Origin: an uncultured Candidatus Saccharibacteria bacterium
GTDB taxonomy: Bacteria > Patescibacteriota > Saccharimonadia > CAILAD01 > CAZGYV01
DNA length: 64,000 nt
NCBI GenBank assembly: GCA_964530725.1
Contig: CAZGYV010000002.1
Coordinates: forward strand, 26,046 to 90,045
Direction of reading: 5' to 3'
Position numbers and translations under genes: made by a program. Of this stretch, positions 2,888 to 57,317 are shown in pieces. The first letter of the stretch is position 1. Each line of letters opens with the position of its first letter. The notes below the pieces were generated by a model. That model was not told the origin of the DNA. It ran no database searches and saw only the letters and a list, made by a program, of their open reading frames with translations.

Positions 2888-2907
2888 CTAATTTTTCCTT
2901 ATCAAAA

Positions 2908-2937
2908 TGAAGGCTGCCCGGTTTTACCCAGGCAGCG
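2908..2937. terminator. Hairpin between the convergent ABC transporter gene and the 2941..3282 ORF; likely bidirectional terminator
   Basis: gctgcc-cggttttaccca-ggcagc inverted repeat immediately after both stops; T/A-rich flank on the minus side. Confidence 0.4.
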
Positions 2938-2940
2938 CGT

Positions 2941-3282
2941 TTAGATGACTGCTTCAAATATTTTTTCGAAACAGTTCGTCAGGACATGTTGGCTGACATT
3001 ACGAGCCGGTATTTGGTACCAAAATATATTGGTTTTCAGCTCTATTTCGGAGAATATCGCCAGGCGCAGGAGCAACAGCTCACCACAAAACTCGATCAAT
3101 GGATCACCATGTGGGCACCAGGTCTCACCCTCGGCTCCGCGATGAATGTCGATGATGTGGCGCTTGATCGCCAAACAAATCAACCATTCCGGTTGATCCG
3201 TGCCATCGACAGCCAACTGATAAGCTGCCTCTCTCGTCCTTCCTGCTCGACTAGTTAGTGACTCATCCTGCGACACCGCCAC
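2941..3282 (-). CDS. Hypothetical protein with HEPN-like RNx3H motif near the C-terminus (possible HepT/DUF86-type toxin)
   Basis: 113 aa starting at GTG directly after the TAA of the upstream ORF and in the same frame. C-terminal ...FWYQIPARNVSQHVLTNCFEKIFEAVI contains R-N-x-x-x-H, the HEPN Rx4-6H signature. Followed by the shared terminator. Confidence 0.35.
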   Translation of the reverse strand: MAVSQDESLTSRAGRTREAAYQLAVDGTDQPEWLICLAIKRHIIDIHRGAEGETWCPHGDPLIEFCGELLLLRLAIFSEIELKTNIFWYQIPARNVSQHVLTNCFEKIFEAVI

Positions 3283-3474
3283 TTAGAACATCTCCCTTCG
3301 GCTCTTGATTAAGGCTTGTACCATTGAAATCGCACTGATCGCATCGCGGTGAGGATTTTCGGCAAGTTTTGCCCCAAGCTCTGCCAGCTCACTACGATCG
3401 TAGTTAACTAGATCACCAGGATCACCCTCGCCGATAATCACCATCTGGTTGCGTAGCATTTCTTCGGTCACCAT
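3283..3474 (-). CDS. Small hypothetical protein (63 aa) upstream of and in frame with the HEPN-like ORF; possible antitoxin partner
   Basis: ATG preceded by GGAG (gacagaGGAGcttgaaATG). The track ORF 3283..3501 starts at an upstream TTG. Product MVTEEMLRNQMVIIGEGDPGDLVNYDRSELAELGAKLAENPHRDAISAISMVQALIKSRREMF. No family recognised. Confidence 0.35.
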   Translation of the reverse strand: MVTEEMLRNQMVIIGEGDPGDLVNYDRSELAELGAKLAENPHRDAISAISMVQALIKSRREMF

Positions 3475-3516
3475 TTCAAGCTCCTCTGTCGCCGTTGACA
3501 AGGTGCACGATTTGCC

Positions 3517-3545
3517 ATGATAGAGAATTTGCTAGCTGCCGTCAA
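3517..3545 (-). promoter_or_regulatory. sigma70-like promoter for the 3474->2941 two-ORF locus
   Basis: Minus strand reads TTGACG-17 nt-TATCAT, then the GGAG RBS and ATG. Confidence 0.45.
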
Positions 3546-3610
3546 GGCTTGTATGCAATAAGTTCTGCCCTGCCACAAACAAAACCATAATCAGTAAGCA
3601 AACAGTAAAA

Positions 3611-3659
3611 TCCTTTCGTCCTTTCGGACTCATCAGAATGAGTACACACTCATTGAGGA
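3611..3659 (-). ncRNA. Type III hammerhead self-cleaving ribozyme (complete catalytic core)
   Basis: Minus strand 5'-UCCUC^AAUGAGU-GUGU-ACUCAUU-CUGAUGA-GUCC-GAAA-GGAC-GAAA-GGA-3'. Helix I is a 7-bp hairpin with a GUGU loop. The core is C3-U4-G5-A6-U7-G8-A9. Helix II is GUCC/GGAC with a GAAA loop and G10.1-C11.1. G12-A13-A14 are present. A15.1-U16.1 pair and helix III is AGGA/UCCU. The cleavage triplet is C-U-C, so H17 = C. The core is almost identical to the classic sTRSV-derived CUGAUGAGUCCGUGAGGACGAAAC. Confidence 0.7.
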
Positions 3660-3717
3660 GCGGGATTTTCACCCGCCTCCCACAAGATACCCCGTGGGAT
3701 TTTTCCATCACCTCACA

Positions 3718-4257
3718 TTACCGTGCAGCAATGGTTGTCGTGGCATTCTCCGGCGGCTTATCCGCCGGAACTTCGGTCTCGTCATCAGATGCCCCTTCAG
3801 GAGCACAGGGTGGACGATAGTCCGGATTGGTATCCGGCCAAAAGTACCAGTAATACGGGCTGGCCGCATTCCACCGGTTCAACGGATTGACCGGGTCGTA
3901 CGGATCGCCGTAAACGCCATCTGACGGCCTAGGAACGTAGGTGATCCTGGAGCCGCTTGGTGGTGACAATCGATCCTGAGTCTTTGGTGCTTCCGGCATC
4001 TTTCCGGGATTGACTGGCTTCGGATTACTAGCCGAACCGGATGGTTTTCCGGTTGGCGATCCAGATGGCTTCCCACTCGATGAACCGGATGGTTTCCCAA
4101 CGGGGCTAGGTGCCGGCGATCTTACTCCGCCTGACCCCGAGCCTCCGCTCCGCGCCCCACCGCTTGATGGTGCAGCACAAGCTTGGTCGCTTGCACATGC
4201 CGCCATCAAGCCAGCGACTAATCCAGAGATGACCAGCAGAATGGTCAACCTTCTCAA
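3718..4257 (-). CDS. Secreted low-complexity lipoprotein (Pro/Ser/Gly-rich with GKPSGS repeats)
   Basis: N-terminal signal with lipobox-like LMAAC. Three GKPSGS(x) repeats reflected in DNA tandem repeats around 4030-4110. Pro-rich C-terminus. Confidence 0.6.
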   Translation of the reverse strand: MRRLTILLVISGLVAGLMAACASDQACAAPSSGGARSGGSGSGGVRSPAPSPVGKPSGSSSGKPSGSPTGKPSGSASNPKPVNPGKMPEAPKTQDRLSPPSGSRITYVPRPSDGVYGDPYDPVNPLNRWNAASPYYWYFWPDTNPDYRPPCAPEGASDDETEVPADKPPENATTTIAAR

Positions 4258-4326
4258 GGCTATCCCCTTTTTCGCTTCTCCAACTTAGCTAACCTATTAT
4301 AGAATATTTTGCTATTTTTGTCCAGT

Positions 4327-6351
4327 CTAAACTTCAATCACGACCGGCAAGACGATTGGATTGCGCTTAGTCACTTTGTAGAGGTAATTGCTTAGCTCCT
4401 CGCGCATACGAGTCTTGATGATCGGAGAATTGGCCGGCACCGAGATGTCTCGCTTTTCAAAAATATTACGGACAATTTGGCGTGATTTATTGAGCAGCTC
4501 TTCGTTGTCCTTCATATAGATAAAGCCGCGGCTGATGATGTCAGGGCTAGTTTTTAGCTTGCCGGTTTTCTTTTCAACCGTGACGATGGCCGTAAACACC
4601 CCCTCTGAAGCCATTGCCAAGCGGTCTTTCAAGACAACTTCCTGGACGTCACCAATACCAGCGCCATCAACTAATACTACGCCGGCAGCGACTTTTTTAC
4701 CTTCCTTGATGCCCTCTTTGGTGAGCTCTAGGGTTTGGCCATTTTCGATCATGAAAACATTTTTCGGATCAACAATACCGCTGCGCTTAGCGATTTCGGC
4801 ATTGTGCACCATGTGGTGGATTTCGCCGTGAATCGGCAGGTAGTATTTCGGCCGGATAATATTGATCATCTCCATCACTTCGTCGTAATAAGCGTGCCCC
4901 GAGGTGTGCATAATGCCAAGATCGTCAAAGCCACGCATACCATTTTGGTAAACATACGGGCCCCAGCGCAACAGATTATCAACCATGCTATAGACGTCTT
5001 TTTCGTTGCCTGGAATAATCGATGAGCTCAATACTACAACATCGGTCGGTTTTAATTTGATGTCTCTGTGCTCACCGCGGCCCATACGATTGAGCACCGC
5101 CATTTCCTCACCCTGCGAGCCAGTCGCCAGCACAGCTATCTCGCTGTCCTGATATTTGTTGACATCAGTGGCTTTAATCACGAGGCCAGCTGGAATTTTA
5201 ATGTAGCCAAATTTGACCGCCAGCTCAGCATTGGACAAGATACTGCGACCAACTATCACCAGCTTGCGCTTGGCTTTGGCCACCGCGTCAATAATAATCT
5301 GCATACGATTGACCTGGCTCGAGAAGGACGAGATGATAACCCGCTTGTTGTAATTGCGCACGAAGATCTCGTCGATCGTGTCAGTGATCTCCTGCTCGCG
5401 CGGGCTGTGTCCGGTCTGCTCGCAACTCGTACTATCACACATCAAAAGTGCCACTCCCTCGTCGCCGATTTCGCGCAAACGTTTGATATTACTCTCTTTA
5501 CCGTCAATCGGCTCAGGGTCGAAACGCCAATCGCCAGTATTGACGATCGTACCGACCGGCGTACGAATAACCAGCGCGCAAGAGTCCGGAATCGAGTGGG
5601 TAATGCGCACAAATTCGATCGAAAAGGCACCCAGCTGAATCTTTTGGCCTAAATCCTGATCGACAATATGCATTTCTGGCTTAAAGGGCAAGCGGTATTC
5701 AGTCAACATGCGCTCGATGAACTTAATCGTGAATTTAGCACCGTAAATCGGAGCTGGTAATTTTGGCAAAATAAATGGAATGCCGCCGATGTGGTCCAAG
5801 TGGGCATGAGTTATTAGGTGACCGCGAACCTTGTGCTTGCGCTCTTCCAAATAACTAATGTCAGGCAAAATGTAATCGATACCCGGCAAATCGGGTCCGG
5901 GGAACATGAAGCCCAAGTCCATCACGATGATGTCATCTTCGTATTCCAGGGCGCAAACGTTTTTGCCAATCTGGCCTAAGCCTCCTAGCGGGATAATTTT
6001 TAGCTTGCCGGCATCGATCTTGGATAGTCTCGGCGAGCTGGCCGGCTTAGCGGAGTCTGATTTGGAATTGAAGTTACCATCCATGTAGTTCGGCCTGGAA
6101 AAACGATTCTGGCGCTGAGAACGCGACGAGCCATTGCCTGGCTTGCCGTTTGAGCTTTGGCGGCGATTAGGCTGCCGCGCGGTATTGTTAGTTTTAGCCG
6201 AGGTCCGGCGCGAACTACCGGCTTGGTCGCCAGCTTGTCCACCAGTTTGATTGCTATTTTGGACCGCCTTTGCAGGGCGGGTTGGTTTTTTTGTGCCACT
6301 AAGGCCTAAATCTTCTTCTCTTAGCGGTCTTGATGATAATGAATCTGTCAT
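4327..6351 (-). CDS. rnj: Ribonuclease J (metallo-beta-lactamase/beta-CASP RNase) with a ~115-aa low-complexity N-terminal extension
   Basis: HxHxDH motif (ITHAHLDHIGG) and beta-CASP region. 674 aa, of which the first ~115 are S/N/Q/R/G-rich. Confidence 0.85.
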   Translation of the reverse strand: MTDSLSSRPLREEDLGLSGTKKPTRPAKAVQNSNQTGGQAGDQAGSSRRTSAKTNNTARQPNRRQSSNGKPGNGSSRSQRQNRFSRPNYMDGNFNSKSDSAKPASSPRLSKIDAGKLKIIPLGGLGQIGKNVCALEYEDDIIVMDLGFMFPGPDLPGIDYILPDISYLEERKHKVRGHLITHAHLDHIGGIPFILPKLPAPIYGAKFTIKFIERMLTEYRLPFKPEMHIVDQDLGQKIQLGAFSIEFVRITHSIPDSCALVIRTPVGTIVNTGDWRFDPEPIDGKESNIKRLREIGDEGVALLMCDSTSCEQTGHSPREQEITDTIDEIFVRNYNKRVIISSFSSQVNRMQIIIDAVAKAKRKLVIVGRSILSNAELAVKFGYIKIPAGLVIKATDVNKYQDSEIAVLATGSQGEEMAVLNRMGRGEHRDIKLKPTDVVVLSSSIIPGNEKDVYSMVDNLLRWGPYVYQNGMRGFDDLGIMHTSGHAYYDEVMEMINIIRPKYYLPIHGEIHHMVHNAEIAKRSGIVDPKNVFMIENGQTLELTKEGIKEGKKVAAGVVLVDGAGIGDVQEVVLKDRLAMASEGVFTAIVTVEKKTGKLKTSPDIISRGFIYMKDNEELLNKSRQIVRNIFEKRDISVPANSPIIKTRMREELSNYLYKVTKRNPIVLPVVIEV

Positions 6352-57227: not shown

Positions 57228-57317
57228 TGGCGGAGAGGGAGGGATTCGAACCCTCGATACAGTTGCCCGTATACCGCCTTTCCAAGGCGGCGCACTAGTC
57301 CACTATGCGACCTCTCC
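57228..57317 (-). tRNA. tRNA-Ser (anticodon GGA), class II with a long variable arm, CCA encoded
   Basis: rc sequence GGAGAGG-TC-GCA-TAGTGGACTAGT-GC-G-CCGCC-TTGGAAA-GGCGG-TATACGGGCAACTGTATC-GAGGG-TTCGAAT-CCCTC-CCTCTCC-G-CCA. U33/A37 flank GGA. Confidence 0.9.

What the first reader, a model, noticed from the sequence alone, without database searches (positions are those of the whole stretch)
3611..3659. Complete type III hammerhead ribozyme between a lipoprotein gene and a promoter-driven two-ORF (HEPN-like) locus
The minus strand carries every invariant hammerhead core position in the correct order. These are CUGAUGA, helix II GUCC-GAAA-GGAC with G10.1-C11.1, G12-A13-A14, the A15.1-U16.1 pair and a C-U-C cleavage triplet. 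Helix I is a 7-bp hairpin immediately 5' of the core. Helix II is nearly identical to the well-studied sTRSV helix II. Helices I to III are minimal at 7, 4 and 4 bp, so the motif may be a minimal natural hammerhead or may need a partner. It lies in the 3' region of the 3718..4257 transcript and upstream of a sigma70-like promoter for two in-frame ORFs separated by one TAA. Bacterial hammerheads occur but are rare and usually phage- or integrase-associated; here the context is a putative toxin-like pair.
Basis: partly seen in the sequence, partly recalled or inferred. Interest (0 to 1): 0.85.

Follow-up and report, generated by a model that had tools for sequence, protein, structure and literature searches.

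The report
Hammerhead ribozyme in a Saccharibacteria genome
The flagged 49 bases are very probably a genuine self-cleaving hammerhead RNA of a type common in phage genomes, sitting at the end of a recently inserted lipoprotein gene in a Saccharibacteria genome; it is a new example of a known kind, and the neighbouring genes show no sign of being a toxin pair.

Summary
The motif is at 3659..3611 on the minus strand exactly as described. It has the CUGAUGA core, helix II GUCC-GAAA-GGAC, GAAA, an A15.1-U16.1 pair, C17, a helix I hairpin and a 4-bp helix III.

It is not a minimal hammerhead. Loop 1 (UGUGUA) and loop 2 (GAAA) match a large class of type III hammerheads in phage contigs and three viroid-sized contigs. 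A covariance model built from 40 phage members, without the window, scores it 63.6 bits (E about 1e-16). Rfam RF00008 gives only 23.4 bits against a threshold of 48.5, but 19 of 20 class members tested also miss that threshold.

The host is a Saccharibacteria MAG. The hammerhead ends a lineage-specific cassette (promoter, lipoprotein-like ORF179, structured 3' UTR, hammerhead) inserted between rnj and a small operon. That operon has its own promoter, conserved in related genomes that carry no hammerhead.

The most likely role is to cut ORF179 or read-through transcripts just upstream of that promoter. The "HEPN-like toxin pair" is unsupported: no profile hits, and the R-x5-H motif is not conserved.

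A second, unrelated type III hammerhead with the same layout lies in another Saccharibacteria genome. Verdict: new member of a known kind, moderate interest.

The parts
3611..3659 (-). Type III hammerhead ribozyme. Helix III is UCCU/AGGA, C17 is 3655, helix I is 3654-3637 with loop UGUGUA, the core is CUGAUGA 3636-3630, helix II is 3629-3618 with loop GAAA, and GAAA is 3617-3614.
   Evidence: Sequence read; CM R1 63.6 bits, E = 1.2e-16 over 3666..3603; RF00008 23.4 bits, local match; descriptor scan.
3654..3655 (-). Predicted cleavage site, between C3655 and A3654. The 5' product would end ...CUCCUC with a 2',3'-cyclic phosphate. The 3' product would start 5'-OH-AAUGAGU.
   Evidence: Position 17 of the hammerhead alignment. 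The chemistry is inferred from established hammerhead mechanism and was not tested.
3657..3696 (-). Two hairpins in the ORF179 3' UTR directly upstream of the ribozyme: CACGGG/CUUGUG (3696-3681) and GGAG[G]CGGG-UGAAAAU-CCCGCUCC (3680-3657). The second competes with the helix III 5' strand.
   Evidence: MFE folds. Hairpins immediately 5' of the hammerhead are also seen in phage members and in L171.
3594..3716 (-). Predicted long-range stem closing the whole 3' UTR plus hammerhead into one domain. It pairs GUGAG..GAUGG.AAAAUCC (3716-3697) with GGAUUUU.CUGUU..CUUAC (3613-3594).
   Evidence: 131-nt fold -45.3 kcal/mol, z = -3.9. The stem is retained when the hammerhead fold is enforced. The strain difference at 3708, A to G, keeps the pair as A-U to G-U. 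This is a prediction only.
3718..4257 (-). ORF179, a lipoprotein-like gene with a low-complexity linker and a conserved C-terminal motif YDPxNPLNRWNAASPYYWYF. It is the lineage-specific gene whose transcript carries the hammerhead.
   Evidence: ORF list; one distant homologue, P0003; 3 synonymous and 0 non-synonymous differences against L121; absent from sister genomes.
4296..4324 (-). Promoter-like site TGGACA-17-TATAAT (11 of 12 matches) immediately after the rnj stop codon, upstream of ORF179.
   Evidence: Consensus scan. This is a consensus match only.
3517..3545 (-). Promoter TTGACG-17-TATCAT of the ORF63-ORF113 operon, 65 nt downstream of the hammerhead, followed by the conserved leader GTGnACCTTGTCAA.
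   Evidence: Consensus scan; the -35, the -10 and the leader are conserved in L236, L237 and L238.
3283..3474 (-). ORF63, a small protein with an invariant VIIGEGDPGDL motif. It is the first gene of a Saccharibacteria-specific operon of unknown function.
   Evidence: Homologues P0005 and P0006 at 43% identity, at the same genomic position in L237.
2941..3282 (-). ORF113, homologous to the third gene of the same operon in L237 and L236. It starts directly after the ORF63 stop codon because the middle gene is missing here.
   Evidence: 37% and 25% identity; 5 synonymous and 1 non-synonymous differences against L121; no family hits.
2913..2936 (-). The only intrinsic-terminator-like site on this strand between rnj and the convergent ABC transporter gene.

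Best explanation
The site encodes a genuine type III hammerhead self-cleaving ribozyme. It belongs to the class with loop 1 UGNGUN and loop 2 NAAA, which is abundant between genes in dsDNA phage contigs and also occurs in three viroid-sized contigs that are probably plant sobemovirus satellite RNAs.

In this Saccharibacteria genome it is the 3' end of a lineage-specific, moron-like cassette: promoter 4324..4296, the lipoprotein-like gene ORF179, a structured 3' UTR, then the hammerhead. The cassette was inserted between rnj and a small operon (ORF63-ORF113) that has its own conserved promoter.

There is no intrinsic terminator between ORF179 and the ribozyme. Transcripts from the ORF179 promoter, or read-through from rnj, therefore contain it. 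The RNA is predicted to cut itself after C3655. This would leave an ORF179 mRNA that ends in two stable hairpins and a 2',3'-cyclic phosphate, and would detach a 5'-OH downstream fragment just before the next promoter. On this reading the ribozyme forms the 3' end of the ORF179 mRNA and insulates the downstream operon from upstream transcription.

Shown: the motif, its class membership, the insertion and the gene layout. Inferred: transcription through the site, cleavage in vivo and the insulating role.
For: - Motif and coordinates confirmed.
- 40 non-redundant phage sequences were selected only on loop 1, core and helix II. All pair 6 of 6 in helix I, with compensatory changes at all six pairs. 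Helix III is 91% paired and N17 is never G. Covariation score is 0.649, against 0.159 in shuffles and at most 0.108 when partners are slid.
- A model built from them hits the window at 63.6 bits.
- The only strain difference inside the ribozyme is in loop 2, GAAA to AAAA. AAAA is the commonest loop in the class.
- Sister genomes have rnj directly abutting the ABC transporter gene: L139 (RNase J 93% identical over the 395 residues it covers), L127, L130, L132 and L136.
- Genomes with the ORF63 operon have its promoter right after rnj and neither ORF179 nor a hammerhead. ORF179 plus the hammerhead is therefore the inserted piece.
- No terminator-like site lies before 2936.
- A second, sequence-unrelated type III hammerhead in another Saccharibacteria genome has the same layout: promoter, roughly 400 nt, hairpin, hammerhead, promoter, genes. 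It is L171 636-688, at 29.6 bits with R1 and 31.9 bits with RF00008.
- The predicted stability of the active fold is typical of the class. The penalty relative to the MFE is 3.1 kcal/mol, against a class median of 2.7.
- Published proposals for bacterial and phage hammerheads are mRNA processing and 3' UTR effects (PMC3088659, PMC6765202).
Against: - No cleavage or transcript data exist.
- RF00008 is below its gathering score.
- The training set for R1 was chosen with a pattern taken from the window's own loops and helix II, so part of the 63.6 bits is circular. Helix I, U16.1, C17 and helix III were not selected for.
- No diverged orthologue of this particular locus exists, so covariation cannot be tested at the locus itself.
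- In nearest-neighbour folding, helix III has a probability of about 0.01, and its 5' strand is sequestered by an upstream hairpin.
- The cleavage triplet is CUC rather than the class-typical GUC.
- Most other variable inserts at the rnj-ABC and truB-rpsO gaps carry no hammerhead, so an insulating role is not general.
- Both promoters flanking ORF179 are consensus matches. Only the downstream one is supported by conservation.
Confidence: 0.62

Rival explanations
1. Active ribozyme but a passive passenger. The hammerhead came in with ORF179 from a phage or other mobile element, where such ribozymes punctuate polycistronic transcripts. It still cleaves but has no selected role in this host.
For: - The class is abundant in phage contigs, next to accessory (moron-type) and anti-restriction genes.
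- The cassette is lineage-specific.
- The cassette is less diverged between strains (1.1%) than its flanks (2.9-3.9%), which is consistent with recent arrival.
- The only ORF179 homologue lies on a high-GC contig of a different organism.
- Hammerheads are absent from most other inserts at the same hot spots.
Against: - No phage homologue of ORF179 and no DNA match to phage records.
- The ribozyme is intact, and its only polymorphism is a class-typical loop change.
- The same hammerhead-then-promoter layout recurs independently in L171.
- In phages the ribozyme sits 22-49 nt before a start codon, and no such gene follows here.
Confidence: 0.22
2. Intact motif, but inactive or conditionally active in its native transcript. 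The upstream hairpin (3680-3657) and the AAAAUCC/GGAUUUU pairing trap the helix III strands. The site would then be either dead or a regulated switch.
For: MFE structures of 96-175 nt contexts lack helix III, with a pair probability of about 0.01. The active fold is about 3 kcal/mol less stable. Helix III has only 4 bp and a CUC triplet.
Against: The same calculation on 41 phage members in their native flanks gives a median penalty of 2.7 kcal/mol, and 73% have helix III probability below 0.05. The window is therefore typical of a class under clear selection for the hammerhead fold. The energy model ignores the loop-loop tertiary contacts and core stacking.
Confidence: 0.12
3. One reading: the ribozyme serves the downstream two-ORF 'HEPN-like toxin' locus, for example by processing its 5' end.
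For: It lies 137 nt upstream of the ORF63 start codon on the same strand, and read-through transcripts would be cut there.
Against: - The operon's conserved promoter lies downstream of the ribozyme.
- Homologous operons in L236, L237 and L238 have no hammerhead.
- No HEPN, toxin or defence profile hit.
- The R-x5-H motif is not conserved.
Confidence: 0.03
4. Chance resemblance with no RNA function.
For: RF00008 is below its gathering score. Scaled to the whole window, its E-value would be of order 1.
Against: E = 1.2e-16 with the class model; 0 strict descriptor hits in 30 shuffles of 0.95 Mb; both loops, which a bare hammerhead pattern does not require, match the class consensus.
Confidence: 0.01

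Closest known systems
Type III hammerheads of plant viroid-like satellite RNAs (Rfam RF00008; sobemovirus virusoids and sTRSV)
   Same: The core, helix II GUCC-GAAA-GGAC and loop 1 UGUGUA are identical to those in the 366-nt and 377-nt contigs L115 and L206. From their sizes and from memory, these look like the velvet tobacco mottle and Solanum nodiflorum mottle virus satellites. Sobemovirus satellites are known to self-cleave by hammerheads (PMC4488728). The topology is the same: type III, helix I two pairs longer than helix II.
   Different: The window's copy is encoded in a bacterial DNA genome, as a single copy inside an mRNA 3' UTR, not in a circular RNA replicon. Its cleavage triplet is CUC rather than GUC. 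There is no rolling-circle context.
Intergenic hammerheads of bacteriophages and prophages (Perreault et al. 2011, PMC3088659), including the IMG/VR class collected here
   Same: Same sequence class: 63.6 bits with a model built from it. It lies between genes on the coding strand, preceded by a hairpin, and is associated with accessory or lineage-specific genes. The proposed role is processing of longer transcripts.
   Different: In the phage contigs the ribozyme sits 22-49 nt upstream of a start codon, often several per contig, and is often preceded by a TTCAAAGACAC motif. Here it is a single copy with no such motif. It is followed by a promoter rather than a start codon, and there are no phage genes, integrase or phage DNA similarity nearby.
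Phage morons (promoter-gene-terminator cassettes inserted between conserved genes). This is from general knowledge and was not tested against a database.
   Same: A promoter-like site plus a single accessory lipoprotein-like gene, inserted between two conserved neighbours and absent from sister genomes.
   Different: It is in a cellular genome and not a prophage. The 3' boundary is a ribozyme instead of an intrinsic terminator.
Synthetic ribozyme insulators such as the sTRSV-derived RiboJ. This is from general knowledge.
   Same: A self-cleaving type III hammerhead with the same helix II, used to uncouple a gene from its upstream transcript context.
   Different: Synthetic insulators sit between a promoter and a gene. 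This one sits upstream of the promoter, so it would act only on read-through transcripts.

Membership tests
Hammerhead ribozyme (Rfam clan CL00010) | Conserved core nucleotides in order: C3 U4 G5 A6 N7 G8 A9 ... G12 A13 A14 | tested here: met
   CUGAUGA at 3636-3630 and GAA at 3617-3615.
Hammerhead ribozyme (Rfam clan CL00010) | Three helices around the core, with pairs directly adjacent to it (1.1-2.1, 10.1-11.1, A15.1-U16.1) | tested here: met
   A3654-U3637, G3629-C3618 and A3614-U3656. Helices have 7, 4 and 4 bp.
Hammerhead ribozyme (Rfam clan CL00010) | Cleavage-site nucleotide 17 is not G | tested here: met
   C3655. In the class it is C in 35, A in 5 and U in 3 sequences, never G.
Hammerhead ribozyme, type III (RF00008) | Helices I and II closed by loops, helix III open | tested here: met
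   global alignment to R1.
Hammerhead ribozyme, type III (RF00008) | Score at or above Rfam's gathering threshold (48.5 bits) | tested here: not met
   23.4 bits, local match to positions 9-47. Calibration: 19 of 20 class members, including two of the three viroid-sized contigs, score 37-47 bits and also miss it. The threshold is therefore uninformative for this class.
Hammerhead ribozyme, natural (full-length) class | Loop 1 / loop 2 elements that provide tertiary contacts | tested here: met
   Loop 1 UGUGUA and loop 2 GAAA fit the class consensus UG(U/A)GU(G/A) and NAAA. Columns 19, 20, 22, 23 and 43-45 are invariant, though these columns were used to select the set. The contact itself was not modelled.
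Hammerhead ribozyme | Helices supported by covariation | tested here: inconclusive
   Strong at class level: 6 of 6 helix I pairs and 4 of 5 helix III pairs have compensatory changes. At this locus only copies 98-100% identical exist.
Hammerhead ribozyme | Mg2+-dependent self-cleavage giving 2',3'-cyclic phosphate and 5'-OH ends | not testable with these tools
   Needs in vitro transcription or end-specific RNA-seq.
   RHIIDIH in ORF113 aligns to KCHINHL and LCLLNGR in its homologues.
   No hits in Pfam, NCBIfam, PHROGs or PADLOC.
   The single-sequence AlphaFold model has mean pLDDT 43.6 and is unusable.
Moron-like inserted cassette | Present between conserved neighbours and absent from close relatives | tested here: met
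   rnj abuts the ABC transporter gene in L139, L127, L130, L132 and L136. rnj is followed directly by the ORF64 promoter in L237.
Moron-like inserted cassette | Own promoter and own terminator | tested here: inconclusive
   Promoter-like site with 11 of 12 matches at 4324..4296, by consensus only. There is no intrinsic terminator; the hammerhead occupies that position.
Moron-like inserted cassette | Phage origin | tested here: not met
   No PHROG hit, no phage DNA match and no viral-contig relative of ORF179.

The most novel reading that the evidence does not exclude
In Saccharibacteria, hammerheads may act as natural terminator substitutes or insulators. They would sit at the 3' end of a strongly promoted, recently acquired transcription unit and immediately upstream of the next promoter, cutting read-through RNA so that inserted cassettes do not perturb neighbouring operons. 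Two sequence-unrelated cases with this layout were found in about 0.95 Mb: the window, and L171 between truB and rpsO.
Probability: 0.18. Interest if true: 0.6.

Novelty: new member of a known kind. Interest (0 to 1): 0.35.

Why it matters
The biological role of bacterial hammerheads is still described as largely elusive (PMC6765202). This locus is a clean, simple case: one ribozyme, a defined upstream gene with its own promoter, no terminator, and a downstream operon whose promoter is fixed by conservation. It therefore makes the "3'-end formation / insulation" idea directly testable with a dead-ribozyme control.

It also extends hammerheads to Saccharibacteria (CPR). The paper library held no relevant paper combining "hammerhead" with Saccharibacteria, and none combining "hammerhead ribozyme" with Candidate Phyla Radiation.

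It also shows that Rfam's RF00008 threshold misses this whole phage-borne class.

Tried and rejected
- Rfam at gathering threshold over the whole window: only a tRNA.
- My first crude hammerhead regex missed L171 because of a stem-counting bug.
- HEPN / toxin idea: no hits in Pfam, NCBIfam, PHROGs or PADLOC. The word-index homologue search for ORF113 found only itself.
- Phage origin of the insert: no blastn match in 50,697 phage records, and no viral-contig relative of ORF179.
- More diverged copies of the cassette or of the ORF63 operon in JGI metagenomes: none.
- Target-site duplications or terminal repeats around the insert: none. The only repeats are the in-frame 24-nt repeats inside ORF179.
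- Similarity between the two promoters flanking ORF179, as a sign of promoter duplication: too weak to call.
- The idea that hammerheads mark all variable inserts at these hot spots: rejected. About ten other truB-rpsO inserts of 0.7-1.9 kb have none.
- The idea that alternative folding kills this ribozyme: weakened, because the same penalty is typical of the phage class.

Full report
**Observation**

On the minus strand the window reads:

...GGAGGCGGGUGAAAAUCCCGC UCCU C | AAUGAG UGUGUA CUCAUU CUGAUGA GUCC GAAA GGAC GAAA GGA UUUU...

The hammerhead elements map as follows:
- Core: C3-A9 at 3636-3630, and G12-A14 at 3617-3615.
- Junction pair A15.1-U16.1: A3614 with U3656.
- Position 17: C3655.
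- Helix I: 3654-3637, six Watson-Crick pairs plus a U-A closing pair.
- Helix II: GUCC-GAAA-GGAC at 3629-3618.
- Helix III: UCCU/AGGA, 4 bp.

Helices I and II are closed and helix III is open, so this is type III.

**Is it more than chance, and is it a known class?**

- Rfam at gathering thresholds reports only a tRNA in the window.
- With relaxed thresholds RF00008 (Hammerhead_3) matches 3654..3615 at 23.4 bits, against a gathering score of 48.5. The match is local and omits helix III.
- A scan of IMG/VR for the core plus helix II found at least 120 contigs. About 30 of the hits are type III with the window's architecture.
- A second scan required only loop 1 UGNGUN, the core and GUCC-NAAA-GGAC. 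It gave 45 loci, or 43 distinct 64-nt sequences including the window.
- Helix I complementarity, U16.1, N17 and helix III were not part of that pattern. Even so, all 43 pair 6 of 6 in helix I, N17 is C, A or U and never G, and helix III has 3-6 bp in 41 of them. Four bp is the commonest length.
- On the 40 sequences used for the model (39 phage contigs plus the 322-nt contig L232), all six helix I pairs and four of five helix III pairs show compensatory changes. The covariation score is 0.649, against 0.159 in shuffles and at most 0.108 with slid partners.
- A covariance model built from those 40, window excluded, finds one hit in the window: 3666..3603, 63.6 bits, E = 1.2e-16.
- Caveat: the training set was selected with the window's own loops and helix II, so part of that score is circular. 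The unselected features fit as well.
- A strict type III descriptor finds 2 sites in 0.95 Mb and none in 30 shuffles.
- The Rfam threshold is not informative here. Of 20 class members scanned, 19 score 37-47 bits and miss it. These include two of three viroid-sized contigs (366, 377 and 322 nt) that I take, from size and memory, to be sobemovirus satellite RNAs. Such satellites self-cleave by hammerheads (PMC4488728).
- L115 and L206 share the window's loop 1 and helix II exactly, and L115 its loop 2 as well (L206 has AAAA).

The motif is therefore not a minimal hammerhead. It carries the class's conserved loops.

**Host and locus**

The neighbouring genes are housekeeping genes: PNPase, UDG, RNase J, TruB and S15. 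RNase J's relatives are Saccharibacteria MAGs.

All on the minus strand, the order is:
- rnj (6351..4327);
- a promoter-like site, TGGACA-17-TATAAT (4324..4296);
- ORF179 (4257..3718);
- two hairpins;
- the hammerhead;
- a promoter, TTGACG-17-TATCAT (3545..3517);
- ORF63 (3474..3283);
- ORF113 (3282..2941);
- a terminator-like hairpin (2936..2913).

A convergent ABC transporter gene follows.

The same locus occurs at 98-100% identity in three other assemblies.

**The cassette is an insertion**

- In L139, whose RNase J is 93% identical over the 395 residues it covers, rnj abuts the ABC transporter gene with 26 bp between them. The same is true in L127, L130, L132 and L136.
- ORF63 has two 43%-identical homologues. 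Their loci read rnj, promoter, ORF64, ORF116, ORF123/149, then the convergent ABC transporter gene (L237; L236 and L238 are partial). The -35, the -10 and a leader GTGnACCTTGTCAA are conserved with the window.
- ORF113 is 37% and 25% identical to the third gene of those operons. The middle gene is missing in the window, which explains why the ORF63 stop codon abuts the ORF113 start codon.
- Those loci contain no hammerhead.

The lineage-specific piece is therefore promoter plus ORF179 plus 3' UTR plus hammerhead, roughly 4326..3560. The ribozyme is not part of the ORF63 operon's own transcript.

ORF179 looks like a real gene. It has 3 synonymous and 0 non-synonymous differences between strains. 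It has one distant lipoprotein homologue that shares the motif YDPxNPLNRWNAASPYYWYF, on a high-GC contig.

Between strains the insert differs by 1.1% and its flanks by 2.9-3.9%. The single difference inside the ribozyme is in loop 2, GAAA to AAAA, and AAAA is the class's commonest loop.

**The toxin claim**

- ORF63, ORF113 and ORF179 have no Pfam, NCBIfam, PHROG or PADLOC matches.
- The R-x5-H motif in ORF113 is not conserved.
- A single-sequence structure model was unusable, with pLDDT 43.6.

Nothing supports HEPN or a toxin pair.

**Folding**

- The 131-nt ORF179 3' UTR plus ribozyme folds to -45.3 kcal/mol, z = -3.9.
- A long-range stem (3716-3697 with 3613-3594) encloses two hairpins, helix I and helix II.
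- The MFE structure lacks helix III. Its 5' strand is taken by hairpin 3680-3657, and its 3' strand by an upstream AAAAUCC.
- Enforcing the hammerhead fold costs about 3 kcal/mol and keeps the outer stem as an extension of helix III.
- The same calculation on 41 phage members gives a median cost of 2.7 kcal/mol, and 73% have helix III probability below 0.05. The window is typical of the class, and this is not evidence of inactivity.

**A second case**

- Model R1 found a sequence-unrelated type III hammerhead at L171 636-688, in another Saccharibacteria genome. It reads CACUC|CACAAA-CGAAGUA-UUUGUG CUGAUGA GCUCU-UAA-AGAGC GAAA GUGUG. It scores 29.6 bits with R1 and 31.9 bits with RF00008.
- It lies in a 2.4-kb insert between truB and rpsO, which are about 35 bp apart in the window and in most relatives.
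- Its layout is a perfect promoter at the truB end, about 400 nt with no convincing ORF, a strong hairpin, the hammerhead, a promoter-like site 13 nt later, and then genes. This parallels the window.
- About ten other inserts in that gap have no hammerhead.

**Mechanism**

- Shown: the motif, its class membership, the insertion and the gene order.
- Inferred: transcripts from the ORF179 promoter or from rnj run through the site, because no terminator intervenes. The RNA cleaves after C3655. The ORF179 mRNA then ends in stable hairpins with a cyclic phosphate. The downstream RNA, with a 5'-OH at AAUGAGU, is separated just before the next promoter.

This matches the published but untested proposals that bacterial and phage hammerheads process longer mRNAs or act in 3' UTRs (PMC3088659; PMC6765202).

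It differs from the phage arrangement seen here, where the ribozyme sits 22-49 nt upstream of a start codon, next to accessory and anti-restriction genes.

The main rival is that the ribozyme is a passenger that arrived with ORF179. No phage signature was found in the insert itself.

**Verdict**

This is a genuine, probably active hammerhead of a known class, in an unreported host lineage. No relevant paper in the library combines hammerhead with Saccharibacteria, and none combines "hammerhead ribozyme" with Candidate Phyla Radiation. It is a new member of a known kind, of moderate interest, mainly as a clean test case for what bacterial hammerheads do.

Noticed in passing
L171:636-688 (+), contig CAYUXQ010000011.1: A second type III hammerhead in a distant Saccharibacteria genome, with different helices and loops. 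It lies in a 2.4-kb insert between truB and rpsO. It is preceded by a 12/12 consensus promoter (204-232) and about 400 nt without a convincing ORF, and followed 13 nt later by a promoter-like site (701-728).
   Followed up: partly
window 2941-3545 (-); L236:100-1136; L237:3917-5023; L238:1131-1409: A small Saccharibacteria-specific operon of unknown function. Its genes are a 63-aa protein with invariant VIIGEGDPGDL, a small membrane-like protein, and a roughly 113-aa protein with AEGETW...WYxIP...EKxFE. It has a conserved promoter and a leader GTGnACCTTGTCAA containing an imperfect palindrome CTTGTC-N6-GACAAG, which may be an operator. The middle gene is deleted in the window, and the operon is absent altogether from sister genome L139.
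   Followed up: partly
window 2888-4326 versus L121: The inserted region differs by 1.1% between strains, while the flanking rnj and ABC transporter genes differ by 2.9% and 3.9%. This suggests the insert spread or recombined between strains more recently than the flanks diverged.
   Followed up: no
window 3718-4257 (-); L235:247-687: The only homologue of lipoprotein-like ORF179 is on a short high-GC contig, next to an unrelated 136-aa gene. ORF179 itself is 58% GC in a roughly 50% GC genome. This is compatible with transfer from a high-GC organism such as an actinobacterial host or its phage. ORF179 also contains three in-frame 24-nt tandem repeats (4027-4098).
   Followed up: partly
L124-L203, truB-rpsO and rnj-ABC intergenic gaps: Both gaps are insertion hot spots in Saccharibacteria. 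The truB-rpsO gap is 34-100 nt in most genomes but 0.4-2.4 kb in about a dozen. The rnj-ABC gap ranges from 3 nt to 1.4 kb.
   Followed up: partly
IMG/VR loci L019, L024, L032, L046, L050, L052, L066, L099, L101 and others: Many phage type III hammerheads of this class are preceded, about 10 nt upstream of helix III, by a conserved TTCAAAGACAC-like motif. They occur two or three per contig, flanking small genes. The window's copy lacks the motif.
   Followed up: no
L033:545-607, L093: A type I hammerhead begins about 15 nt after what looks like the 3' end of a tRNA gene (...GGTTCGAGTCCCGTACAGACCGCCA) in phage contigs. It may be a case of ribozyme-assisted tRNA 3' processing.
   Followed up: no
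Rfam RF00008, tested on L099, L051, L204, L225, L233, L115, L206 and others: Rfam's Hammerhead_3 gathering score (48.5 bits) is missed by 19 of 20 clear members of this class. Routine Rfam annotation will therefore not report them.
   Followed up: yes
window 57231-57317 (-): The only Rfam hit at gathering threshold in the window is a tRNA (57.3 bits) with a long variable arm. By eye its anticodon loop reads GGA (Ser).
   Followed up: no
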